Shown here: in pieces, positions 3,567 to 29,237 of the stretch
Layout: each line of letters begins with the position of its first letter
Position numbering within the stretch: position 1 is the first letter of the stretch
Source of the DNA: Methanobacteriota archaeon
GTDB lineage: Archaea; Thermoplasmatota; Thermoplasmata; SG8-5; DAIRED01
DNA length: 64,000 nt
Assembly (NCBI GenBank): GCA_043799545.1
Contig: JAZDNO010000019.1
Span: 64,001 to 128,000, forward strand
Reading direction: 5' to 3'
Translations under genes and position numbers: made by a program
The notes under the pieces: model-generated
Database searches by the model: none
What the model was told of the DNA's origin: nothing
The model's input: only the letters and a program-made list of their open reading frames with translations

Positions 3567-4150
3567 TGGGACGTTCGGGGGACGGCCGGAAGGTCGTGAT
3601 GCCAGGGGAGGAGATAGCGGCCTCGGAGGAGTTCGTCGTGGGAGAAGGCACGTACGAGCGCGAGGGCAGGATTTTTGCCTCGGTGACCGGGACAGTCGAG
3701 CTGGACAAGCTGGATATGGTGGCGCGGGTCAGGGCTCTCAACGCTCCGAGGCAGCTCAAGGCCGGGGACACGATAGTCGGCGCAGTCTCGGAAATAAGGG
3801 GAACTATGGTGAACATACAGACAATCGCTCCGGAGGAAGATGGCCGCAGGATGACCGGGCAGGACATGGGGACCATCCACATATCGAAGGTCACGGAAGG
3901 CCGCAGCGACGACCTGCGCGAGATGTTCAGGCTGGGCGACGTGGTCAGGGCGAAGGTCATCCAGGTCAAGCCGTCCCTCCAGCTCACCACCGCCGGTCCG
4001 GACTTCGGGGTTATCAAGGCGTTCTGCACGAAGTGCCGGGCGCCGCTGGCCCTGCGAAAGGGGGACCTGCGCTGCGACAACTGCGAGCGCATAGAGCGAA
4101 GGAAGCTTGCCAAGGGATACAGCTCGCCAGCCTTCTTCGAAGAGGGTTGA
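3566..4150 (+). CDS. csl4: exosome complex RNA-binding protein Csl4
   Basis: VMPGEEIA...EGTYE N-domain, S1 domain (IHISKV...FRLGDVVRAKV) and Zn ribbon CTKC...CDNC...ERRKLA. TGATG coupling to the upstream gene. Confidence 0.93.
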   Translation: MGRSGDGRKVVMPGEEIAASEEFVVGEGTYEREGRIFASVTGTVELDKLDMVARVRALNAPRQLKAGDTIVGAVSEIRGTMVNIQTIAPEEDGRRMTGQDMGTIHISKVTEGRSDDLREMFRLGDVVRAKVIQVKPSLQLTTAGPDFGVIKAFCTKCRAPLALRKGDLRCDNCERIERRKLAKGYSSPAFFEEG

Positions 4151-4153
4151 AAG

Positions 4154-5854
4154 ATGCGTAAGAAGCTGGTCGAGCGCTTGTGCTCGCAGGGGATTCTCAT
4201 AGAGCCGTCGGCGTTGAAGATGCTCCAGGCGGGGCCGGAGCCGCTGGCCACCCTGGAAAGGTTCCTCGGCTCGTCCAGGCAGAACCCGCTGCTGATAACC
4301 GGCACGGACGTCCGGGAATTCCTGGATTCGGAGAATGCAAAGGCGGAGCTTCAGCCAGCGCCCGCCCCGCCCCCGCCGAGCCCCGACGAGGAGGAGCCGG
4401 ACGAGGGGGCGGCGAGGCCGTCGACGGGCGTCGCCATGTACATGGACGCCCCGTCCATGGTTCCCCCCCCTGTCGGGCCCGAACCGATCGTTCTGCGGCT
4501 GGGCGGTGGCGAAGCGGGGTCGATGCCGGACGAAACGCCGACCGTCCCGGCGGCCGAGCCGCCCAAGACATCCGGGCGCACATCCATGTCCAACCGGGCG
4601 GCGGCCAAGGGCTACGATTCAGACGTCGCGGTCATTCAAGAAATAACGGACGAGAGCCGTTGCACCGGCCAGGCGAGCGATTTCAAGAACTACTTCGAGG
4701 ACAGGCTCCGCGTCCTCAGCCGGCTCCTGAAGCAGCGACCGGAGATGGGGGGGGCGGTCAAGGTCGAGAGCGCGCTCGGCTACGACGCCCGCGAGGCGCG
4801 GGTAATCTGCATGGTCAGCGACGTCGCCCGCCCCCAGGACAAGCGCGTGAGGGGGACGTGGCTCACTGTCGAGGACGAGACTGGAACGATGCGCGTTTGG
4901 CTGCCGGACGAGGGCGGTTTCGCGGGAAAGTACGTCCTGAAGGACGAGGTCATTGGAATATTGGGAAAGGTCCAGAAGCCCAGGGGCCATCACCCCGGCA
5001 GGGACCGGGGGAACTACATCGTGGCGCAGCATCTGATCAGGCCAGAGCTCGTGGGGCCCCGCACGCCCAGGCGCTCGGAGAACCCGCTGGTGATGGCCTG
5101 CGCGGGAGACCTTCACGTCGGCAGCAGCCACTTCCTCCCCAAGCCCTGGGGGAAGCTGGTCTCGTGGCTGAAATCCGGCGACGGCACGGCCGGAAACGTC
5201 AAGTACCTGCTCATGCCCGGCGACATGGTCGACGGCATAGGAATCTATCCCAACCAGGACGAGGAGCTGGAGATTGACGACGTTTACCTGCAGTACGAGC
5301 GGCTGGCCACGATGCTTGCGGAGATACCGGACCACATAGCGCTGATAATCCTGCCCGGGAACCACGACGCCCAGAGGCTCAGCGAGCCGCAGCCGGCGCT
5401 GCCCCAGAAGGTCCGCGACATCCTGGGCACTCGCCCCTCGTACGTCGGAAACCCGAGCTACCTGATGGTCGACGGCGTGCGGGTACTGGCCTACCACGGA
5501 AGGGGATTCGACGACTTCGCGGGGAACCTCGGGCCGATAGGGTACCAGCAGCCGATGCTCCTCATGCAGGAGATGCTGAAGCGCAGGCACATGTCCCCGA
5601 TATACGGCGGCAAGAACCAGCTCGCGCCGGAGCGGCGCGACCACATGGTCATCAACCCCGTGCCGGACGTTTTCGTCACCGGCCACGTCCACGGGGCGGG
5701 GATAGAGGATTACAAGGGCGTCGTGAACATAAACGCCTCGACTTTGCAGTCGCAGACGCCGTTCCAGGCGTCGCACAACTTCAACCCGGACCCTGGCAAA
5801 GTCCCGTGGGTCAGGCTCGACACCTTCGAGTTCGGGATGGAGAGCTTCTTCTGA
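4154..5854 (+). CDS. polB: DNA polymerase D (Pol II) small subunit DP1
   Basis: Calcineurin-like motifs GDLHVGS, GDMVDG, PGNHD, YHGRGFDD, HMSPIYG and GHVH, an OB fold (VEDETG) and a Pro-rich linker. Confidence 0.95.
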   Translation: MRKKLVERLCSQGILIEPSALKMLQAGPEPLATLERFLGSSRQNPLLITGTDVREFLDSENAKAELQPAPAPPPPSPDEEEPDEGAARPSTGVAMYMDAPSMVPPPVGPEPIVLRLGGGEAGSMPDETPTVPAAEPPKTSGRTSMSNRAAAKGYDSDVAVIQEITDESRCTGQASDFKNYFEDRLRVLSRLLKQRPEMGGAVKVESALGYDAREARVICMVSDVARPQDKRVRGTWLTVEDETGTMRVWLPDEGGFAGKYVLKDEVIGILGKVQKPRGHHPGRDRGNYIVAQHLIRPELVGPRTPRRSENPLVMACAGDLHVGSSHFLPKPWGKLVSWLKSGDGTAGNVKYLLMPGDMVDGIGIYPNQDEELEIDDVYLQYERLATMLAEIPDHIALIILPGNHDAQRLSEPQPALPQKVRDILGTRPSYVGNPSYLMVDGVRVLAYHGRGFDDFAGNLGPIGYQQPMLLMQEMLKRRHMSPIYGGKNQLAPERRDHMVINPVPDVFVTGHVHGAGIEDYKGVVNINASTLQSQTPFQASHNFNPDPGKVPWVRLDTFEFGMESFF

Positions 5855-6293
5855 GCGTCCCGTCCGGCCCGACCTCGCCCCTGCACACCCTCGTGGAGGA
5901 GAGGGGGCGCCCGTCGCTCGCGCTCACGAGCCCGATTGCCAGTATCTTCAGGGCCTTCAAACCGCCCACCTCGCGCATCTCGTTGATGCGCCTGGCTCCG
6001 TCGAGAGTCTCCTCGGAGACGACTATCGCGTCGAATTCCCCGCTCGCCGCCGGCCCGATTTCGTCTTCTATTTCGCCTATCTCGTAGGGCTTTCCTTTCG
6101 CGAGCTTGTCGCACATCGCGGCCAGCTCCTTCTTCCGCAATTCGAAAGAGGGCACGTCGTGGCACTTGCCATGCGCCATGGCGCTGGAGGCGAGGCCTAT
6201 GAAAACCTCGTCGCCCACATCGAAGGCCAGGGCGAGAAGCGCTTCGTGGCCCCTGTGCAGGTGGCTGAAAGTTCCTCCGAGGCAGACCCTCAT
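5811..6293 (-). CDS. coaD: archaeal phosphopantetheine adenylyltransferase
   Basis: LGGTFSHLHRGHEALL (HxGH), VVSEET and LSSTRV. ATG at 6293; 44-nt convergent overlap with DP1. Confidence 0.88.
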   Translation of the reverse strand: MRVCLGGTFSHLHRGHEALLALAFDVGDEVFIGLASSAMAHGKCHDVPSFELRKKELAAMCDKLAKGKPYEIGEIEDEIGPAASGEFDAIVVSEETLDGARRINEMREVGGLKALKILAIGLVSASDGRPLSSTRVCRGEVGPDGTLRRSSPSRTRRCRA

Positions 6294-6382
6294 GGCGACG
6301 GGTAAGCGTTGTCTGCATAAGGCTTTTCGCGCCAGGGCGAAGACCGAAAAAGTGATTAACGCCCCCTCCATCACTCCGAATC

Positions 6383-6850
6383 ATGAATGCCCTCGTGGTC
6401 TACTACTCCAGGACGGGGATGACGAAAATAGTCGCCGAGACGGTGCGCGCGCTCCTCCAGTGCGACGCCGAGGAGCTGAAGGACACGAAGAAGCGCAAGG
6501 GGCTCGTCGGCTACATGCGCTCGGGCCGCGAGGTCATGGAGAAGGGAACGACGACGCTGGAGCCCACATCGCGCGACCCGGCGGACTACGACCTCGTAAT
6601 AGTGGGAACGCCGGTCTGGGTCTACACGATGTCCACTCCCGTGAAGGCGTGGCTCGAACAGAACGAGGCTAAGATAAAGAAGCTGGCGGTCTTCTGCACC
6701 TGCGGGAGCGACCCCGGCCACACAATCGAGGACGTGGAGGCGGCCTGCGGGCTCGTGGCCGGGGCCAAGCTCGTCGTGTTAGCGAGGATTGCCAAGAGGG
6801 CGATGCACGTAGAGGAGACGACGGAGTTCGTGAGGAAGCTGCAGGCGTAG
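6383..6850 (+). CDS. flavodoxin-like protein
   Basis: VVYYSRTGMT FMN-binding loop, VIVGTPVW and AVFCTCG. Confidence 0.88.
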   Translation: MNALVVYYSRTGMTKIVAETVRALLQCDAEELKDTKKRKGLVGYMRSGREVMEKGTTTLEPTSRDPADYDLVIVGTPVWVYTMSTPVKAWLEQNEAKIKKLAVFCTCGSDPGHTIEDVEAACGLVAGAKLVVLARIAKRAMHVEETTEFVRKLQA

Positions 6851-6883
6851 GCGCGCTGGCGCGACAGGGTTCGCACGATTGCG

Positions 6884-6908
6884 AAAACCTTATATATCGC
6901 GGGGTTTT
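6884..6908 (+). promoter_or_regulatory. BRE/TATA promoter of the S-layer-like gene, flanked by an AAAACC/GGTTTT inverted repeat
   Basis: GAAAACCTTATATATC at about 6883-6898; arms at 6884-6889 and 6903-6908. Confidence 0.55.
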
Positions 6909-6966
6909 ACGCCCTCCATGGGTGCGCTGGAAACATCTCGGCGCCACCTTTCGCGGAGGAATAAGA

Positions 6967-9234
6967 ATGAAAATAAAGAATCTATTTGCATTAGCGATTG
7001 TGGGAGCGATGCTTGCATCGGCTTTTGCCGGGCTCGCGGCGGCGGACATCATATCGGTGGACGACGACAGGGAGCTGTACATCGTCGCCACGGATTTGGA
7101 CAACCGTGACTACTTTCCGGGAGAGCAGGACATAGACTTCTACATCCAGTGGTACAACCAGGGAGGCGACATCTCCACAACGGACACAGACCTGACCGCG
7201 GTCAGCTGCACGGTGAACGCGGTGGTGCGCAACCTTGCCGGAGCGATAGTGAACAGCCCGGTGTCCTGGGACGAGAACACTGTGGACTACATGGGGACAT
7301 GGCACGAGGGGAACTTTGCGACGTTCAACAACTTCCAGTTCGACGTGGTTGGCAATGCCAAACCGGGCGTGTACAACCTGACCGTGACCCTGACGTTCAC
7401 GGACGCAGCGGAGACGGCCTCCGAGACCGAGTACATAACCTTCGAGATTCTCCAGTGCGCTTTTGTGAACGACGTCGGCGGGCTCATCCCCGGGGACAGC
7501 AACAGGAAGATAGGCGTATACGTCTCGACGGGCATGACGGGCGAGGACCTGTGGCCCGACATCACGCTGACGCTCACCAGGAACAACACGGCCTTTACGT
7601 GGTTCGGCTCGACCGGAGCGACCTCGACGTCGTCGTGGGACAACCCGATATACTCGTGGGCGGGCCACACCTTCCAGTTCCTGATTTCCGTTTCGCCATC
7701 CATGAAGGCCGGCGATTACGACTTCCAATATTCAATCAACTACACCAACGACGACGACGTGCACTGCACCGAGACGGGCGTCATCACGGTTACAGTGGGC
7801 CACCTGGCGATGATTGGCACCACAACGGCGGTCGCCTCCATCGAGCAGGGGACAACCAAGGCCAACTTCACTCTTGTGATATCGAACACCGGGACAGTGA
7901 ACCTCTACGGATTGAAGTTGCGCGTGGACCCAGCGAGCATGTACTTCACGGTCATGCCCGCGGACCACTGGGAAGGCAGCCAGCCCGTGAGCTACGCGGA
8001 GATCGAGGTGGGCGACATCGCAGTCGGCGGCTCGGTCAGCAAGACCATGGTCATAGGCTTCAACGCATACATCCCCGAGGGCAGGCACAAGCTCATGTTC
8101 GGCTTCGACTGTTTCTACTACGACCCAATATCGAGGAGCTACCTGAAGGCGAACTCGACATGGCTGGGCAACCCCTGCTATCCGTACGTGACAATGGACG
8201 GAAACGGCTTCGGGCTGTCTCCGGATGAGAGCACAGTCGACGGTCCGTTCGTCATGCTCGACGTAGTCGACAGCGCCATGGACGTGAGCCTGCAGAGCAC
8301 GACCGTTTTGTACAAATCCCTGGGGCTCATCGACAATGAGCTTGACGTCAAAGTGCTAAACTACGGATACATCGATTACGACAACGTGGTGCTGACGATG
8401 CTCACCAACAGCCCCGACTCGCCGTTCCTGAACGCCGTGGACCCGACGGCGGCCAGCTCCGAGGACGTCATCCTGCCGGGCATCTTGGGTGCGACCGACT
8501 CCGTGTGGCCGGTCCAGTCGGAATACACCGTGACGTTCCGAGTCACCTTGCGGACGGACGCGGAGATGGGCGTGTTCAACGTGCCTGTGACAGCCAGGGG
8601 AATCAACAAGGACATGGGTGTTGAGGTCGAGGCCACGCTCAACGCGAGGGTGACAATCGCCGGGGTAGGCCCAAAGCTTGTGGTAACGTCCTCGACCCCG
8701 TCGAAGATAAACCCAGGCAGCAACTTCGTACTCACGCTGACCATAGAGAACCAGGGGGACGACACCGCGCGAAACGTGGTCATGTTCTCCATCAACGGCG
8801 GAACTTGGGACAGCCTCGAGTTGAACGGAGAGCTGGCGGCGCCAGTCCCGATGATAACTCCGCTCGTCCTCCCGGACATAGCGCCCGGAGACAACATAAC
8901 AGTGACCATCGCAATGAAGTCGCCGGCAGACATGTCCAACGGACACGTCTACATGGTGGAACTCGGCGTGAGTTTCATAGACTCGTACGCCGACCCGTAC
9001 TCGTACAGCAACGCCCAGACGACGTACTTCCAGGTCTCGGTCAAGACCAACGGCATGGGCGGCTCGTCCCTGGGGAATCTCTTCTTCATACTGACGCTGG
9101 TGGGAATCGTCGTCATGATATTCCTCTGCGTCTACACGGTGGTCTGGGCGAGGAAGAACTGGGTGCCGAGGCGCAAGAAGGGAGCATCGCCGTACATTGT
9201 CGGCTCGGAGCAACCGCCGCAGCCTCCCCAGTGA
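6967..9234 (+). CDS. COG1361-type S-layer / Ig-like domain surface protein with C-terminal TM anchor
   Basis: Signal peptide, repeated Ig-like units (FTLVISNTG, FVLTLTIENQGDDTARNV, LPDIAPGD), TM helix, basic stop-transfer and Pro/Gln tail. GGAGGA precedes ATG 6967. Confidence 0.75.
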   Translation: MKIKNLFALAIVGAMLASAFAGLAAADIISVDDDRELYIVATDLDNRDYFPGEQDIDFYIQWYNQGGDISTTDTDLTAVSCTVNAVVRNLAGAIVNSPVSWDENTVDYMGTWHEGNFATFNNFQFDVVGNAKPGVYNLTVTLTFTDAAETASETEYITFEILQCAFVNDVGGLIPGDSNRKIGVYVSTGMTGEDLWPDITLTLTRNNTAFTWFGSTGATSTSSWDNPIYSWAGHTFQFLISVSPSMKAGDYDFQYSINYTNDDDVHCTETGVITVTVGHLAMIGTTTAVASIEQGTTKANFTLVISNTGTVNLYGLKLRVDPASMYFTVMPADHWEGSQPVSYAEIEVGDIAVGGSVSKTMVIGFNAYIPEGRHKLMFGFDCFYYDPISRSYLKANSTWLGNPCYPYVTMDGNGFGLSPDESTVDGPFVMLDVVDSAMDVSLQSTTVLYKSLGLIDNELDVKVLNYGYIDYDNVVLTMLTNSPDSPFLNAVDPTAASSEDVILPGILGATDSVWPVQSEYTVTFRVTLRTDAEMGVFNVPVTARGINKDMGVEVEATLNARVTIAGVGPKLVVTSSTPSKINPGSNFVLTLTIENQGDDTARNVVMFSINGGTWDSLELNGELAAPVPMITPLVLPDIAPGDNITVTIAMKSPADMSNGHVYMVELGVSFIDSYADPYSYSNAQTTYFQVSVKTNGMGGSSLGNLFFILTLVGIVVMIFLCVYTVVWARKNWVPRRKKGASPYIVGSEQPPQPPQ

Positions 9235-26396: not shown

Positions 26397-26473
26397 ACGC
26401 TACCGATAGTTTCCCATTTCGGTAAATTATAAGTATTGAACGGCCAATTGCCATCAGGGATTTCGATTGAAAT

Positions 26474-27391
26474 GTGGACGAGAGAAGTCCGGTTGTTCAA
26501 AAGGAGCCTGGTATCGTGTTTGATTGGCTCATCAACATCCCCGGGCCGACATTCCTGGTGTACCTCCTCATTTTTATAATATCCTTAACTGTGGTAGGCG
26601 GTTATTTATGTTACTTTGACCCAACTGGCAAATTGGACGAGCCTGGGATTACTGAGCTTGAAAAATACCATATAGCGGCATTGCGCGGAGGAGTCAAGGA
26701 AGTAATTGTCACGGCTGCATTCAGTCTCTGGCATAAGGGGCTTATCAATCTGGACAAAGATGAAATCGAACGTAACGAAAAAAATGTTCCCATACTAGAT
26801 CCCATCGAAAAAGAGGTATATGATGAGCTCTCAACCCCGAAAACAGCGTCCTCATTGGTGTACAGCATCGGCTTAGGAGTTAGGTTGGAAGAATACATGG
26901 AATCCATCAACAAGAACCTGGAAAGGCTGCATTTAAAACCTGGTAAAAGTGCTGCATCTAGAGACTGGCTGATACTCTTTTCTATTCTCACGCCAATCCT
27001 CGTCATCGGTGGATTAAAGTTGTATTTTGGGATTGTGCGAGAGAAACCTGTCATGTTTTTAATAATTCTTCTGTGCATGTCCGCCATACTCATCGTGGTT
27101 TTGTTAAATCCATTGAAGTTCCAAACAACACTGGGAAGGCGTTATCTGAATTCGTTGAAAGATCACTACAATTGCATCAAAGATCGCGCTCCAACGGATA
27201 TTCTCAGATACAATATGGACCCGGCTATCGGAATGGCAGTATTCGGCGTGACTGGGCTATATCTTGTAGCGTCTTTGAACACATTCACAAGCAAGTTCAC
27301 GCCGCAGACGTCAAGCGGGGGATTCGGCTGCGGGGGCGCTGGTTGTGGCGGCGGTGGATGCGGCGGAGGTTGCGGGGGGTGCGGCGGATGA
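26474..27391 (+). CDS. TIGR04222-like membrane protein with Gly/Cys low-complexity C-terminal tail
   Basis: IPGPTFLVYL, YHIAALRGG, T-x-x-G-R-x-Y-L region, 3 TM helices and tail SSGGFGCGGAGCGGGGCGGGCGGCGG. The true start may be GTG 26516 after AAGGAG. Confidence 0.8.
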   Translation: MDERSPVVQKEPGIVFDWLINIPGPTFLVYLLIFIISLTVVGGYLCYFDPTGKLDEPGITELEKYHIAALRGGVKEVIVTAAFSLWHKGLINLDKDEIERNEKNVPILDPIEKEVYDELSTPKTASSLVYSIGLGVRLEEYMESINKNLERLHLKPGKSAASRDWLILFSILTPILVIGGLKLYFGIVREKPVMFLIILLCMSAILIVVLLNPLKFQTTLGRRYLNSLKDHYNCIKDRAPTDILRYNMDPAIGMAVFGVTGLYLVASLNTFTSKFTPQTSSGGFGCGGAGCGGGGCGGGCGGCGG

Positions 27392-28503
27392 AGAAAAACC
27401 GAACTGGTTGCAATAATCCGCGCGAGTCACCGTTGATATTCCAATGGCATATCACCGACAAGTGCAACCTCAATTGCCGTCATTGCTACCAAGATAATGG
27501 GCCTGTGCCAGATCCGGAATTCCCGATGTTGGAGAGGACATTCAGACAATATCTGGATTTGCTGGATAAAATCAAAGAAACGGGACGCTGGAAGCCGCGG
27601 GGGCACATCAACATAACCGGTGGAGAACCATTGCTCCGAGATGATTTGTTCAAGCTATTGAACTTGATATCGGAAGCCGACCGACGTGTATCCGTAGGGA
27701 TACTCACGAATGGAACACTGGTCGACGATAAAATGGCTAAAAATATCGGCGACACGGGCGTCAAATTCGTCCAGGTTAGCATGGAAGGGGGGCGGAAAAC
27801 CCACGATTGCGTCAGGGGGCAAGGCAATTTCAATCTCGTAATCGAGGGAATAGAACGCCTGCAAGGTGCCGGTATTTCAACCTACGTTTCGTTCACCGCC
27901 CACCGTCTGAATTACATGGAATTTGGTGACGTAGCGGGGACATGTCGTAAATTGGGCGTGGATTGTCTTTGGGCCGACCGTCTTATACCTTGCGGACGGG
28001 GCAGGGAATTGGCGAACAGCACTCTTTCGCCTGCACAGACGAGGACATTTTTCCAGAACATGAAGCGCGCAAGGTACAATTTGTCGCGTGGATGGGGCAA
28101 GAAAAAAACCGAGATACGTATGAAGCGCTCCCTTCAATTCCTCATCGGCGGTGGAATGCCGTACCGATGCTCCGCAGGAGACCGCCTGATAACTGTGATG
28201 CCTGATGGAACGATGTATCCATGCCGGAGGATGCCCATTTCCGTCGGAAATGTAGCCGTTGAGTCCATATCAGACACATACTACAACAATGAATTCATGC
28301 AGGCGTTGCGCGATCCGGCCAGGGTGCCGGACGGTTGTGAGAATTGCCTTCACGCGAGCGCATGCCACGGAGGCTCCAGATGTCTGGCTAACGTCGTAAA
28401 CGGTTCGCCGTTTACAAGGGACCCGGGATGCTGGGATGCTCATTTTAACAGCTTGGAAAGTCCTGTCTTTGATGTTGGGGACGTGAGGTGTGAAGTATGG
28501 TAG
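27388..28503 (+). CDS. radical SAM protein with SPASM domain
   Basis: CNLNCRHC, TGGEPLL, LTNGTL; SPASM CSAG...DGTMYPC...CENC-x5-CHGGSRC...DPGCW. The ATG overlaps the upstream TGA (ATGA). Confidence 0.92.
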   Translation: MKKNRTGCNNPRESPLIFQWHITDKCNLNCRHCYQDNGPVPDPEFPMLERTFRQYLDLLDKIKETGRWKPRGHINITGGEPLLRDDLFKLLNLISEADRRVSVGILTNGTLVDDKMAKNIGDTGVKFVQVSMEGGRKTHDCVRGQGNFNLVIEGIERLQGAGISTYVSFTAHRLNYMEFGDVAGTCRKLGVDCLWADRLIPCGRGRELANSTLSPAQTRTFFQNMKRARYNLSRGWGKKKTEIRMKRSLQFLIGGGMPYRCSAGDRLITVMPDGTMYPCRRMPISVGNVAVESISDTYYNNEFMQALRDPARVPDGCENCLHASACHGGSRCLANVVNGSPFTRDPGCWDAHFNSLESPVFDVGDVRCEVW

Positions 28504-29237
28504 ACAATTTGCCGTTATCGAGCACGAATGTGGGACCGGAAAGCGTAAGAGCACTGGAACACTTTGTAGCAGATGTGTTGAAGGAGTTCCAAACTGACAT
28601 ATCATCCATCATTTTGTACGGCAGCGGTGCGCGTGCTGATTTCAGGGAGGGGAAAAGTGACCTCAACCTCCTTGTCGTATTTTCTAGTCTGGACATGGCG
28701 CGAATGAGCCGGTTCATACCTCTGCATGACAAATATCTTCGAAATCGAATTGTACCACTGGCATTGACGAAGAAGGATCTCGTTGACACGGCCCATGTGT
28801 TTCCACTCAAGTTTCTATCGTTTAAAGAGGCAAATGTCGTCCTATCTGGCATCGATGTGTTGAAAGAGATAGATGTGGACAATTCGCATGTCAGGTTTAG
28901 GTGCAAGCAGGAACTTCAAAACCTGTTGATGAGGTTGAGATACCACTACATATCCAACCAAGGGCGGGGGCTGACGAACATGATGTCTCGCACATCGACA
29001 AATTTCATCGAATCCCTTCGTGTCGTGATATTGTTGGAAACGGGCAACAAACCCGACAGAGTCGGGATAGTCGAGGCTGCCAGTTCAATCGGTATCGATG
29101 GAGGGGCTTTGAAGAAAGTGCTCGACATTAAGGGAAGGGATGTTGCCTTGCCAAACACAGAGTCCAGAGTGATTTTCGAGAGATATCTCCGAATTGTGGA
29201 GCAATTGTTAGCAAAGGTGGACAACCTTAAAGAATGA
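28497..29237 (+). CDS. Pol-beta-like nucleotidyltransferase domain protein
   Basis: SIILYGSGARADFREGKSDLNLLVV (GS...DxN) and a helical C-terminal domain. GAGGTG RBS; 7-nt overlap with the radical SAM gene. Confidence 0.75.
   Translation: MVDNLPLSSTNVGPESVRALEHFVADVLKEFQTDISSIILYGSGARADFREGKSDLNLLVVFSSLDMARMSRFIPLHDKYLRNRIVPLALTKKDLVDTAHVFPLKFLSFKEANVVLSGIDVLKEIDVDNSHVRFRCKQELQNLLMRLRYHYISNQGRGLTNMMSRTSTNFIESLRVVILLETGNKPDRVGIVEAASSIGIDGGALKKVLDIKGRDVALPNTESRVIFERYLRIVEQLLAKVDNLKE

What the first reader, a model, noticed from the sequence alone, without database searches (positions are those of the whole stretch)
26474..29237. Candidate RiPP-like system: membrane-anchored Gly/Cys-tail protein + radical SAM/SPASM + nucleotidyltransferase
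Seen: three overlap-coupled genes (ATGA at 27388-27391; 7-nt overlap at 28497-28503). Gene 1 is a TM protein ending in GCGGAGCGGGGCGGGCGGCGG. Gene 2 has CxxxCxxC plus a SPASM domain, and gene 3 is a GS..DxN nucleotidyltransferase. Known: SPASM radical SAM enzymes often act as peptide maturases (thioether or C-C crosslinks). As recalled, TIGR04222 tails were described as resembling RiPP precursors without evidence of modification. Inference: the enzyme modifies the Cys/Gly tail of a full-length membrane protein, an unusual substrate format and a rare archaeal case.
Basis: partly seen in the sequence, partly recalled or inferred. Interest (0 to 1): 0.88.

Follow-up and report, generated by a model that had tools for sequence, protein, structure and literature searches.

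The report
Radical-SAM enzyme for cysteine-tailed membrane protein
An archaeon carries an imported three-gene cassette in which a membrane protein ending in a floppy glycine/cysteine tail is followed by an iron-sulfur "radical SAM" enzyme that very probably modifies that tail chemically, a pairing that recurs in many anaerobes and that I found in no paper.

Summary
The three overlapping genes are real. Gene 1 is a TIGR04222 membrane protein (98 bits, cut-off 43) with a disordered tail ending in CGGGCGGCGG. Gene 2 is a radical SAM/SPASM enzyme that reaches no curated family cut-off. Gene 3 has an aminoglycoside-nucleotidyltransferase-like fold, but its active-site motif is degenerate.

In a tree of 39 homologs, one well-supported clade holds 18 of the 19 enzymes that have a Cys-tailed neighbour. 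The partners use three different membrane scaffolds (TIGR04222, DUF2207, TPM), so the tail is the constant feature and the likely substrate. All 120 closest gene-1 homologs keep the Cys tail.

New here: gene 3 belongs to an unnamed family that sits almost always in TPM–X–LemA operons, beside membrane proteins with Gly-only tails. It is a tail-module accessory, not a maturase partner as such.

The cassette is low in GC. TIGR04222 was not found in 40 relatives, so horizontal acquisition is likely. The chemistry (thioether, thiooxazole or other) is not known.

The literature links TIGR04222 only to oxygen-dependent MNIO enzymes. This scan has noted the same pairing before on other DNA (38 notes, at least 34 genomes).

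The parts
26409..26472 (+). Conserved upstream block (likely promoter/5' leader) with a TATA-like AAATTATAAG at about 26423-26433
   Evidence: Almost base-for-base conserved with L014, although the 42 nt that follow are not. The function is inferred, not tested.
26516..27391 (+). Gene 1: TIGR04222 membrane protein.
   Evidence: TIGR04222 98.4 bits against cut-off 43. Weak DUF2207_C match. AF2 model with pLDDT 87: three long hydrophobic helices, a roughly 100-aa soluble domain, a kinked pre-tail helix and a disordered tail. Start-site argument.
27311..27388 (+). Gly/Cys tail (last 26 residues, 5 Cys, ending C-x3-C-x2-C-G-G): the proposed substrate
   Evidence: pLDDT below 50 in the model. The motif is kept in 120 of 120 closest homologs.
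27388..28503 (+). Gene 2: radical SAM/SPASM enzyme, 371 aa, with no RRE domain
   Evidence: PF04055 83.9 bits, PF13186 32.7 bits. No NCBIfam cut-off reached. Ten invariant Cys in 26 homologs: C26/30/33 plus C261, 279, 317, 320, 326, 332, 348. Member of the tail-associated clade.
28168..28431 (+). SPASM region with the seven-Cys motif (residues 261-348)
   Evidence: Profile alignment to CteB, PqqE and anSME.
28497..29237 (+). Gene 3: ANT/KNTase-fold protein with a degenerate Pol-beta motif (G42-S43...S54-D55-L56-N57)
   Evidence: AF2 pLDDT 91.7. Foldseek hits to AAD(9), AadA and KNTase at E 4e-7 to 5e-5. Pfam Polbeta only 17.4 bits against cut-off 26.9. N57 is invariant in 104 members.

Best explanation
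This is a horizontally acquired three-gene cassette whose core is an enzyme-substrate pair. The TIGR04222 membrane protein carries a disordered C-terminal tail of Gly and Cys. The translationally coupled radical SAM/SPASM enzyme, which lacks a leader-binding RRE domain, recognises that tail and oxidatively modifies its cysteines (or the Gly C-alpha next to them) without oxygen. The enzyme has seven conserved SPASM cysteines and no conserved eighth. In the profile alignment its single Cys at the first auxiliary-cluster position matches CteB rather than anSME. From what I recall of the CteB structure, a tail thiolate could therefore bind an open iron of auxiliary cluster I. My split for the chemistry, all inferred: Cys-to-Gly thioether (sactionine-type) bridges about 35%; Cys-derived thiooxazole-type heterocycles, as made by the SPASM enzyme SbtM and by MNIO enzymes, about 35%; something else about 30%. 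The product would be a membrane-tethered, probably metal-binding, modified tail. The system would be the anaerobic counterpart of the MNIO-TIGR04222 pairing proposed for aerobes. Gene 3 is an accessory of Gly-tailed membrane proteins in general. It is probably not a two-metal nucleotidyl transferase, and its role is unknown. Shown here: gene content, motifs, folds, clade-specific co-location and tail conservation. Inferred: that the tail is modified, the chemistry, the product's function, and the side of the membrane on which the tail lies.
For: Co-location. The 78% relative (L014/L015) and two distant bacterial homologs (L016, L017) all have a TIGR04222-type gene with a Gly/Cys tail directly upstream of the enzyme. 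In 80 GTDB loci, 14 of the 18 with at least 35% identity have a Cys-tailed neighbour. One of the other four sits at a contig edge. None of the 62 loci below 35% has a credible Cys-tailed neighbour; the one tail-like match there, in L071, is a 60-aa ORF that I take to be spurious.

Phylogeny. One clade (SH-aLRT 99, 21 rows) holds 18 tail-associated enzymes. The TIGR04222-partnered sub-clade (95-96) mixes Pseudomonadota, Nitrospirota, Thermodesulfobacteriota, Verrucomicrobiota and archaea.

The tail is the constant. In Bacillota the partners are DUF2207 or TPM-domain proteins, not TIGR04222, yet they end in CSS/CGG repeats.

Tail conservation. All 120 closest gene-1 homologs have at least 2 Cys in the last 30 residues; 48 end in CGGCGG.

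No other substrate is in sight. Genes 1-3 overlap, leaving no room for a short precursor gene. The enzyme has no RRE.

Accessibility. The Bacillota partners have a signal peptide, one TM helix and Lys/Arg after it, which puts their tails in the cytoplasm where the enzyme is.

Not a cofactor enzyme. AhbD 130 against 500, NirJ 124 against 515, PqqE 81 against 381, MftC 117 against 265.

MNIO was not found in the window's genome (94% complete), nor in 4 of 5 bacterial genomes that carry the pair. TIGR04222 tails are already proposed as MNIO substrates (PMC12452194).
Against: No biochemical or mass-spectrometric evidence exists for any member, and no expression data could be obtained. Gene adjacency cannot tell a substrate from an anchor or partner. 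The side of the membrane is unresolved for TIGR04222. If the fourth, weakly hydrophobic kinked helix spans the membrane, the positive-inside rule puts the tail outside, as PMC12452194 predicts, and modification would then have to precede translocation. Two clade members with readable flanks lack a tailed neighbour (L030, L031). NCBIfam scores do not single out any chemistry: TIGR04053 153, ACGX 148, SbtM 136, AhbD 130. The open-iron argument rests on one alignment and on recalled structural knowledge.
Confidence: 0.7

Rival explanations
1. The tail is not a substrate but a docking or ligand element. Its terminal C-x3-C-x2-C binds a metal or an Fe-S cluster (its own, or the open site of the enzyme's auxiliary cluster). 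This tethers the radical SAM enzyme to the membrane, where it acts on another substrate such as a lipid, a quinone or a small molecule.
For: The conserved end motif has the same Cys spacing as a [4Fe-4S]-binding CX3CX2C site. The enzyme has no RRE. Adjacency alone fits a stable partner as well as a substrate.
Against: The Bacillota partners keep Cys-rich tails but with other spacings (CSSCSS repeats, C-x4-C) and other endings. That fits a repetitive substrate better than one defined metal site. No gene for another substrate pathway is conserved around the pair.
Confidence: 0.12
2. Gene 3 is an active nucleotidyltransferase that adenylylates (or otherwise nucleotidylates) the tail or its C-terminus. 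It would then be a second maturation enzyme of a three-step RiPP-like pathway.
For: Confident ANT/KNTase two-domain fold. G42 and S54 are invariant, and S43 is kept in 96 of 104 members. D55 is kept in 86 of 104 and D120 in 93 of 104. The gene recurs with the TIGR04222-rSAM pair in L014/L015, L019, L022 and L107.
Against: The second metal-binding carboxylate of the Pol-beta motif is Asn in 104 of 104 members. The first is Asn in 17. Seventy-nine of 80 metagenomic family members have no rSAM nearby and sit with TPM proteins that have Cys-free tails, and with LemA. Most rSAM-tail pairs lack it.
Confidence: 0.15
3. The radical SAM enzyme is a cofactor-biosynthesis enzyme (AhbD/NirJ-like haem or haem d1 maturation, or PqqE/MftC-like), and its position beside TIGR04222 is incidental.
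For: AhbD, NirJ, NirJ1 and NirJ2 appear among the NCBIfam matches at 118-130 bits.
Against: All are far under their cut-offs of 500-650 bits. Adjacency to Cys-tailed proteins is clade-wide across phyla. The genome has other SPASM paralogs on other contigs that could serve such roles.
Confidence: 0.03

Closest known systems
TIGR04222 membrane proteins as proposed substrates of MNIO (DUF692, PF05114) enzymes (Microb Genom 2025, PMC12452194)
   Same: Same substrate family and the same idea: a full-length membrane protein whose Cys-bearing Gly/Ser-rich C-terminal tail is the target of an adjacent modifying enzyme.
   Different: The enzyme here is a radical SAM/SPASM protein, not an oxygen-dependent MNIO. 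That paper names radical SAM only in its reference list. PF05114 was not found in this genome. The hosts here are anaerobe-type lineages and archaea, not mainly Actinomycetota.
SbtM, thio(seleno)oxazole radical SAM/SPASM maturase (NCBIfam TIGR04082)
   Same: A SPASM enzyme acting on Cys or Sec in a peptide. Its product class, thiooxazole, is the same as that reported for MNIO-made bufferins. This makes it a precedent for anaerobic/aerobic equivalence.
   Different: 136 bits against a cut-off of 350, so not a member. SbtM has a long N-terminal extension (the match starts at profile position 201 of 516) and acts on a short peptide.
Cys-repeat targets of radical SAM enzymes defined in silico: the ACGX system (TIGR04340) and the Cys-Xaa-Xaa-Xaa repeat target (TIGR04117)
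   Same: SPASM-type enzymes next to targets made of short Cys-containing repeats. TIGR04340 is the second-best full-length match (148 bits). A Bacillota tail weakly matches TIGR04117 (E 5e-4).
   Different: Cut-offs are not met (148 against 400; 20 against 50). As I recall, those targets are small stand-alone peptides, not tails of 290-560-aa membrane proteins.
Anaerobic sulfatase-maturating enzyme (anSME) and the sactipeptide/ranthipeptide synthases CteB and SkfB
   Same: Closest solved structures by profile: SkfB 1e-25, CteB 3e-20, PqqE 7e-20, anSME 2e-19. From established knowledge, anSME modifies a Cys/Ser of a whole protein without an RRE, and CteB and SkfB make Cys thioethers.
   Different: Distant relatives only. 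There is no sulfatase motif in the tail. anSME has two Cys where this clade and CteB have one.
Aminoglycoside nucleotidyltransferases ANT(9)/AadA/KNTase (for gene 3)
   Same: The same two-domain architecture: an N-terminal Pol-beta fold plus a C-terminal helical domain.
   Different: 11-17% identity, TM-score about 0.5, and an invariant Asn in place of a catalytic carboxylate. There is no resistance context. The family lives in TPM/LemA operons.

Membership tests
TIGR04222 domain-containing membrane protein (gene 1) | HMM score above the curated cut-off | tested here: met
   98.4 bits against cut-off 43. The genome-wide search finds this single copy.
TIGR04222 domain-containing membrane protein (gene 1) | Low-complexity Gly/Ser/Cys C-terminal region after the membrane domain | tested here: met
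   26-residue Gly/Cys tail, disordered in the model, kept in 120 of 120 homologs.
Radical SAM superfamily (gene 2) | CX3CX2C cluster motif and PF04055 above the gathering score | tested here: met
   C26/C30/C33 invariant. 83.9 bits against 29.5.
SPASM subgroup (gene 2) | PF13186 above cut-off and the seven-Cys C-terminal motif | tested here: met
   32.7 bits against 21.5. C261, 279, 317, 320, 326, 332 and 348 are invariant in 26 sequences.
Named SPASM equivalogs (AhbD, NirJ/J1/J2, AhbC, PqqE, MftC, SbtM, ACGX rSAM, TIGR04053, PapB, SkfB) | NCBIfam score at or above the curated cut-off | tested here: not met
   Best is TIGR04053 at 152.6 against 395. Then ACGX 147.9/400, SbtM 136.2/350, AhbD 130/500, NirJ 123.8/515, MftC 117.2/265, PqqE 81.4/381.
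Classical RiPP pathway | Short precursor peptide with a leader, and an RRE (PqqD-like) domain in or beside the maturase | tested here: not met
   The candidate substrate is a 291-305-aa membrane protein. Pfam finds only Radical_SAM and SPASM in the 371-aa enzyme, whose core starts at residue 17-22. The overlapping genes leave no room for a small ORF. It is RiPP-like by logic only.
MNIO-TIGR04222 system | A PF05114 (MbnB_TglH_ChrH) gene next to the TIGR04222 gene | tested here: not met
   No PF05114 match in the genome, which is 94% complete; the Caulobacter control rings.
Pol-beta-type nucleotidyltransferase (gene 3) | Pfam NTP_transf_2 or Polbeta above the gathering score | tested here: not met
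   Polbeta 17.4 bits against 26.9. Only 11-12 of 24 family members give even weak matches.
Pol-beta-type nucleotidyltransferase (gene 3) | Fold: alpha-beta-alpha-beta-alpha-beta core, here with a C-terminal helical domain as in ANT enzymes | tested here: met
   AF2 pLDDT 91.7. Foldseek probability 1.00 to AAD(9), AadA and KNTase.
Pol-beta-type nucleotidyltransferase (gene 3) | Catalytic signature hG[GS]-x9-13-D-h-[DE]-h | tested here: not met
   The window has G42-S43...D55-L56-N57. N57 is invariant in 104 of 104 members. D55 is Asn in 17 and Gln in 1 of them.

The most novel reading that the evidence does not exclude
Three unrelated membrane scaffolds (TIGR04222, DUF2207, TPM) share one functional element: a Gly-rich C-terminal tail, which I take to be cytoplasmic, served by a common degenerate ANT-fold partner. 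Lineages that put cysteines into the tail recruit a dedicated maturase: this radical SAM/SPASM clade in anaerobes and archaea, MNIO in aerobes. The maturase converts the tail into a membrane-tethered metal-binding or redox-active structure. This would be a new class of protein-derived cofactor, not a secreted natural product.
Probability: 0.3. Interest if true: 0.82.

Novelty: new variant of a known kind. Interest (0 to 1): 0.66.

Why it matters
Radical SAM/SPASM maturases are mined almost only next to short peptides, so a clade dedicated to the tails of 290-560-aa membrane proteins would be missed. If the tail is modified, this defines a new substrate class and possibly a new modification. 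It would also give an oxygen-independent counterpart to the MNIO-TIGR04222 pairing. It offers a first experimental handle on the very common but unexplained Gly-rich tails of TPM, DUF2207, TIGR04222 and LemA-linked proteins. It is directly testable with one co-expression and a mass spectrum.

Tried and rejected
- **Complex prediction** of gene 3 with gene 1 (collected): no verdict, score 0.00. This is evidence neither way.
- **Sequencing runs** holding the cassette: none was listed, so nothing can be said on expression; read laying was not used.
- **Foldseek of the gene-1 model against the PDB**: no match at E <= 0.001. The weak MotA/ExbB and GOLPH3 rows are not meaningful.
- **Literature searches**: 'TIGR04222' gave only the MNIO paper with its preprint and one unrelated genome paper. 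DUF2207 with radical SAM, the ACGX/TIGR accession numbers, and TPM/LemA with radical SAM gave nothing relevant.
It was redone with 9 rows, so the 80 loci lean towards the closer part of the family.
- **Insertion site in the same-genus genome G001**: the contig breaks inside the L15e gene, so an empty site could not be shown.
- **My first minus-strand coordinates for L022** were on the reverse complement, so its topology rows are void. Corrected layout: rSAM 4001-4996 (+); TIGR04222 copies at 5015-5965 and 6053-6943 (-); gene-3 homolog at 6928-7665 (-).
- **AhbD/NirJ reading**: rejected on scores and neighbourhoods.
- **Reading the low-complexity tail as a translation of non-coding GC-rich DNA**: rejected because the tail is conserved at the protein level in 120 homologs.
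Full report
**Observation**

The window holds three co-oriented, overlapping genes at 26474-29237.

- **Gene 1** ends in a run of Gly with five Cys, and its stop lies inside ATGA 27388-27391. It passes NCBIfam TIGR04222 at 98.4 bits against a cut-off of 43, and matches Pfam DUF2207_C weakly.
- **Gene 2** (371 aa) starts at that ATG. It has C26-x3-C30-x2-C33, Pfam Radical_SAM (83.9 bits) and SPASM (32.7 bits).
- **Gene 3** (246 aa) overlaps gene 2 by 7 nt and carries G42-S43...D55-L56-N57.

One correction concerns the start of gene 1. An alignment with the 78%-identical relative L014 shows that in-frame conservation begins at GTG 26516. L014 has TTG at that position and no start codon where the window has GTG 26474. 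A GGAG lies 9 nt upstream of 26516. The block 26409-26472, which contains a TATA-like AAATTATAAG, is almost invariant. The protein is therefore more likely 291 than 305 residues long.

**What the enzyme is not**

Gene 2 reaches no curated NCBIfam cut-off. The scores are TIGR04053 153 against 395, ACGX-system rSAM 148 against 400, SbtM 136 against 350, AhbD 130 against 500, NirJ 124 against 515, MftC 117 against 265 and PqqE 81 against 381. It has no RRE domain, because the radical SAM core starts at about residue 20. The closest solved structures by profile are SkfB, CteB, PqqE and anSME, with E-values from 1e-25 to 2e-19.

Twenty-six homologs share ten invariant Cys: three for the SAM cluster and seven in the SPASM region. 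In the profile alignment the clade has one Cys where anSME has two, as CteB does. From recalled structural knowledge, this fits an auxiliary cluster with an open iron that can take a substrate thiolate. This step is an inference.

A search of 5.8 billion proteins found one 78% homolog and then hundreds at 43-51% identity. The few that carry an organism label are bacterial. In the three contigs looked up, the gene directly upstream encodes a TIGR04222-type protein with a Gly/Cys tail.

In 80 loci from GTDB species genomes, 14 of the 18 with at least 35% identity have a neighbour whose last 30 residues are Gly/Ser/Cys with at least 3 Cys. One of the other four starts at a contig edge. None of the 62 loci below 35% has a credible one; the one tail-like match there, in L071, is a 60-aa ORF that I take to be spurious.

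A maximum-likelihood tree puts 18 tail-associated enzymes in one clade of 21 rows (SH-aLRT 99). The window's enzyme lies in a sub-clade (95-96) whose partners are TIGR04222 proteins from Pseudomonadota, Nitrospirota, Thermodesulfobacteriota, Verrucomicrobiota and archaea.

In the Bacillota members of the clade the partners are not TIGR04222. They are DUF2207-N or TPM-domain proteins, yet they end in CSS or CGG repeats. The scaffold changes and the Cys tail stays, which is the strongest argument that the tail is what the enzyme sees.

All 120 closest homologs of gene 1 carry at least 2 Cys in their last 30 residues, and 117 of them at least 3. Forty-eight end in CGGCGG. The Cys spacing tightens towards the end, giving C-x3-C-x2-C.

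**Topology**

The Bacillota partners have a signal peptide, a single TM helix and Lys/Arg right after it. Their tails should therefore be cytoplasmic and within reach of a cytoplasmic radical SAM enzyme.

For TIGR04222 the AF2 model (pLDDT 87) shows three long hydrophobic helices, a soluble domain of about 100 residues after the first, an amphipathic helix, a kinked and weakly hydrophobic pre-tail helix, and a disordered tail. If the pre-tail helix crosses the membrane, the Lys/Arg-rich third loop puts the tail outside, as PMC12452194 predicts. If it does not cross, the tail is inside. I lean towards inside (about 60%), by analogy with the other scaffolds, but this is unresolved.

**Gene 3**

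The model (pLDDT 91.7) matches the two-domain aminoglycoside nucleotidyltransferases AAD(9), AadA and KNTase. Pfam sees it only faintly.

Across 104 family members, G42, S54 and N57 are invariant. D55 is Asp in 86 members, Asn in 17 and Gln in 1. D120 is Asp in 93 and Asn in 11. The second metal-binding carboxylate of the Pol-beta signature is therefore never present. A canonical two-metal transferase is unlikely.

The context is striking. Of 80 metagenomic loci, 68 have a LemA gene and 65 a TPM-domain gene. Sixty of the loci hold a protein ending in a conserved Gly-only tail of the GGFGGFGGG...GGGGAG type. The usual order is TPM - gene 3 homolog - LemA, or gene 3 homolog - TPM - LemA. Only one locus (L107, rSAM 47% identical) repeats the window's TIGR04222 - rSAM - gene 3 order. 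The trio also occurs in L014/L015, in L019 (labelled an uncultured archaeon) and, rearranged, in a betaproteobacterium (L022).

Gene 3 is thus an accessory of Gly-tailed membrane proteins in general. It ties the cassette to the widespread TPM/LemA module. The Atlas lists its relatives as unnamed 'hypothetical protein' clusters.

**Origin**

- The three genes have 47-52% GC and GC3 of 0.51-0.58. The window as a whole has 59% GC, and the upstream beta-CASP gene has GC3 of 0.82.
- TIGR04222 was not found in 40 related genomes, and the genome itself has one copy.
- The best rSAM match in those relatives is 34% identical.
- The cassette sits between a beta-CASP gene and ribosomal protein L15e, with the same flanks in L014/L015. 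The acquisition is therefore not very recent.
- The tree cannot give a donor.

Earlier notes of this scan call the organism a Thermoplasmata archaeon. I verified only the L15e marker, which bacteria lack.

**Relation to what is known**

PMC12452194 proposes subsets of TIGR04222 proteins as whole-protein substrates of MNIO enzymes. It names radical SAM only in its reference list. I found no paper on the rSAM pairing. PF05114 was not found in this genome or in 4 of 5 bacterial genomes that carry the pair.

SbtM shows that a SPASM enzyme product can be assigned the same thiooxazole class that is reported for the MNIO-made bufferins. This makes an anaerobic/aerobic enzyme pair plausible but unproven.

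This scan has noted the same pairing before on other DNA: 38 notes in at least 34 genomes. Those notes agree with my reading but are not independent evidence.

**Verdict**

- The core interpretation is supported by comparative genomics but not by chemistry.
- The role proposed for gene 3 is revised.
- This is a new variant of a known kind: a SPASM maturase with a membrane-protein tail as its substrate.

Noticed in passing
L002:1501-4013 (-), from G001, same genus as the window's genome: A different radical SAM/SPASM enzyme (338 aa, 34% identical, outside the main clade on a long branch) lies 8 nt downstream of a protein of 496 or more aa. That protein has a DUF2207-like layout but matches no family, and it ends in five CGG repeats (CGGCGGCGGCGGCGG). 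It has no homolog in the window's genome. Cys-tail/rSAM pairing therefore exists in a second SPASM lineage and differs between congeners.
   Followed up: partly
L108-L186 (metagenome loci): A conserved operon of TPM-domain protein, gene-3-like degenerate nucleotidyltransferase-fold protein and LemA. The TPM proteins end in a well-conserved Gly-only tail (GGFGGFGGG.SGGGGAG..F). This tail looks like a defined motif, not mere low complexity.
   Followed up: partly
L017:1010-2965: In the same bacterial genome as one rSAM-TIGR04222 pair, 3 kb upstream, a second radical SAM/SPASM gene follows a 243-aa protein built of long Pro/Phe-rich repeats (KFPP...ADFPRDKFPP units). This may be another enzyme-repeat-protein pair.
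   Followed up: no
L016:3493-4941: A sulfatase gene (PF00884) lies directly upstream of the TIGR04222-rSAM pair in one bacterial contig. It may be coincidence, but anSME-type chemistry on Cys is one of the options.
   Followed up: no
window 26409-26472: A 64-nt upstream block is almost invariant between the window and L014, while the following 42 nt diverge. It contains a TATA-like element and a conserved GGGATTTCGATTGAAA stretch. It may be a promoter plus a regulatory leader.
   Followed up: partly
L023, L025, L026, L043 (Bacillota DUF2207-type partners): These 540-560-aa partners carry a soluble domain of about 250 aa between the single TM helix and the Cys tail. A local motif in it resembles the loop-1 domain of TIGR04222 (hydrophobic-x-L-x-L-x3-G-x-hydrophobic). 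This suggests that the scaffolds share a cytoplasmic pre-tail domain.
   Followed up: no
G000:C18:35415-37503: The window's genome has two tandem SPASM paralogs (26-28% identical to gene 2) on another contig.
   Followed up: no
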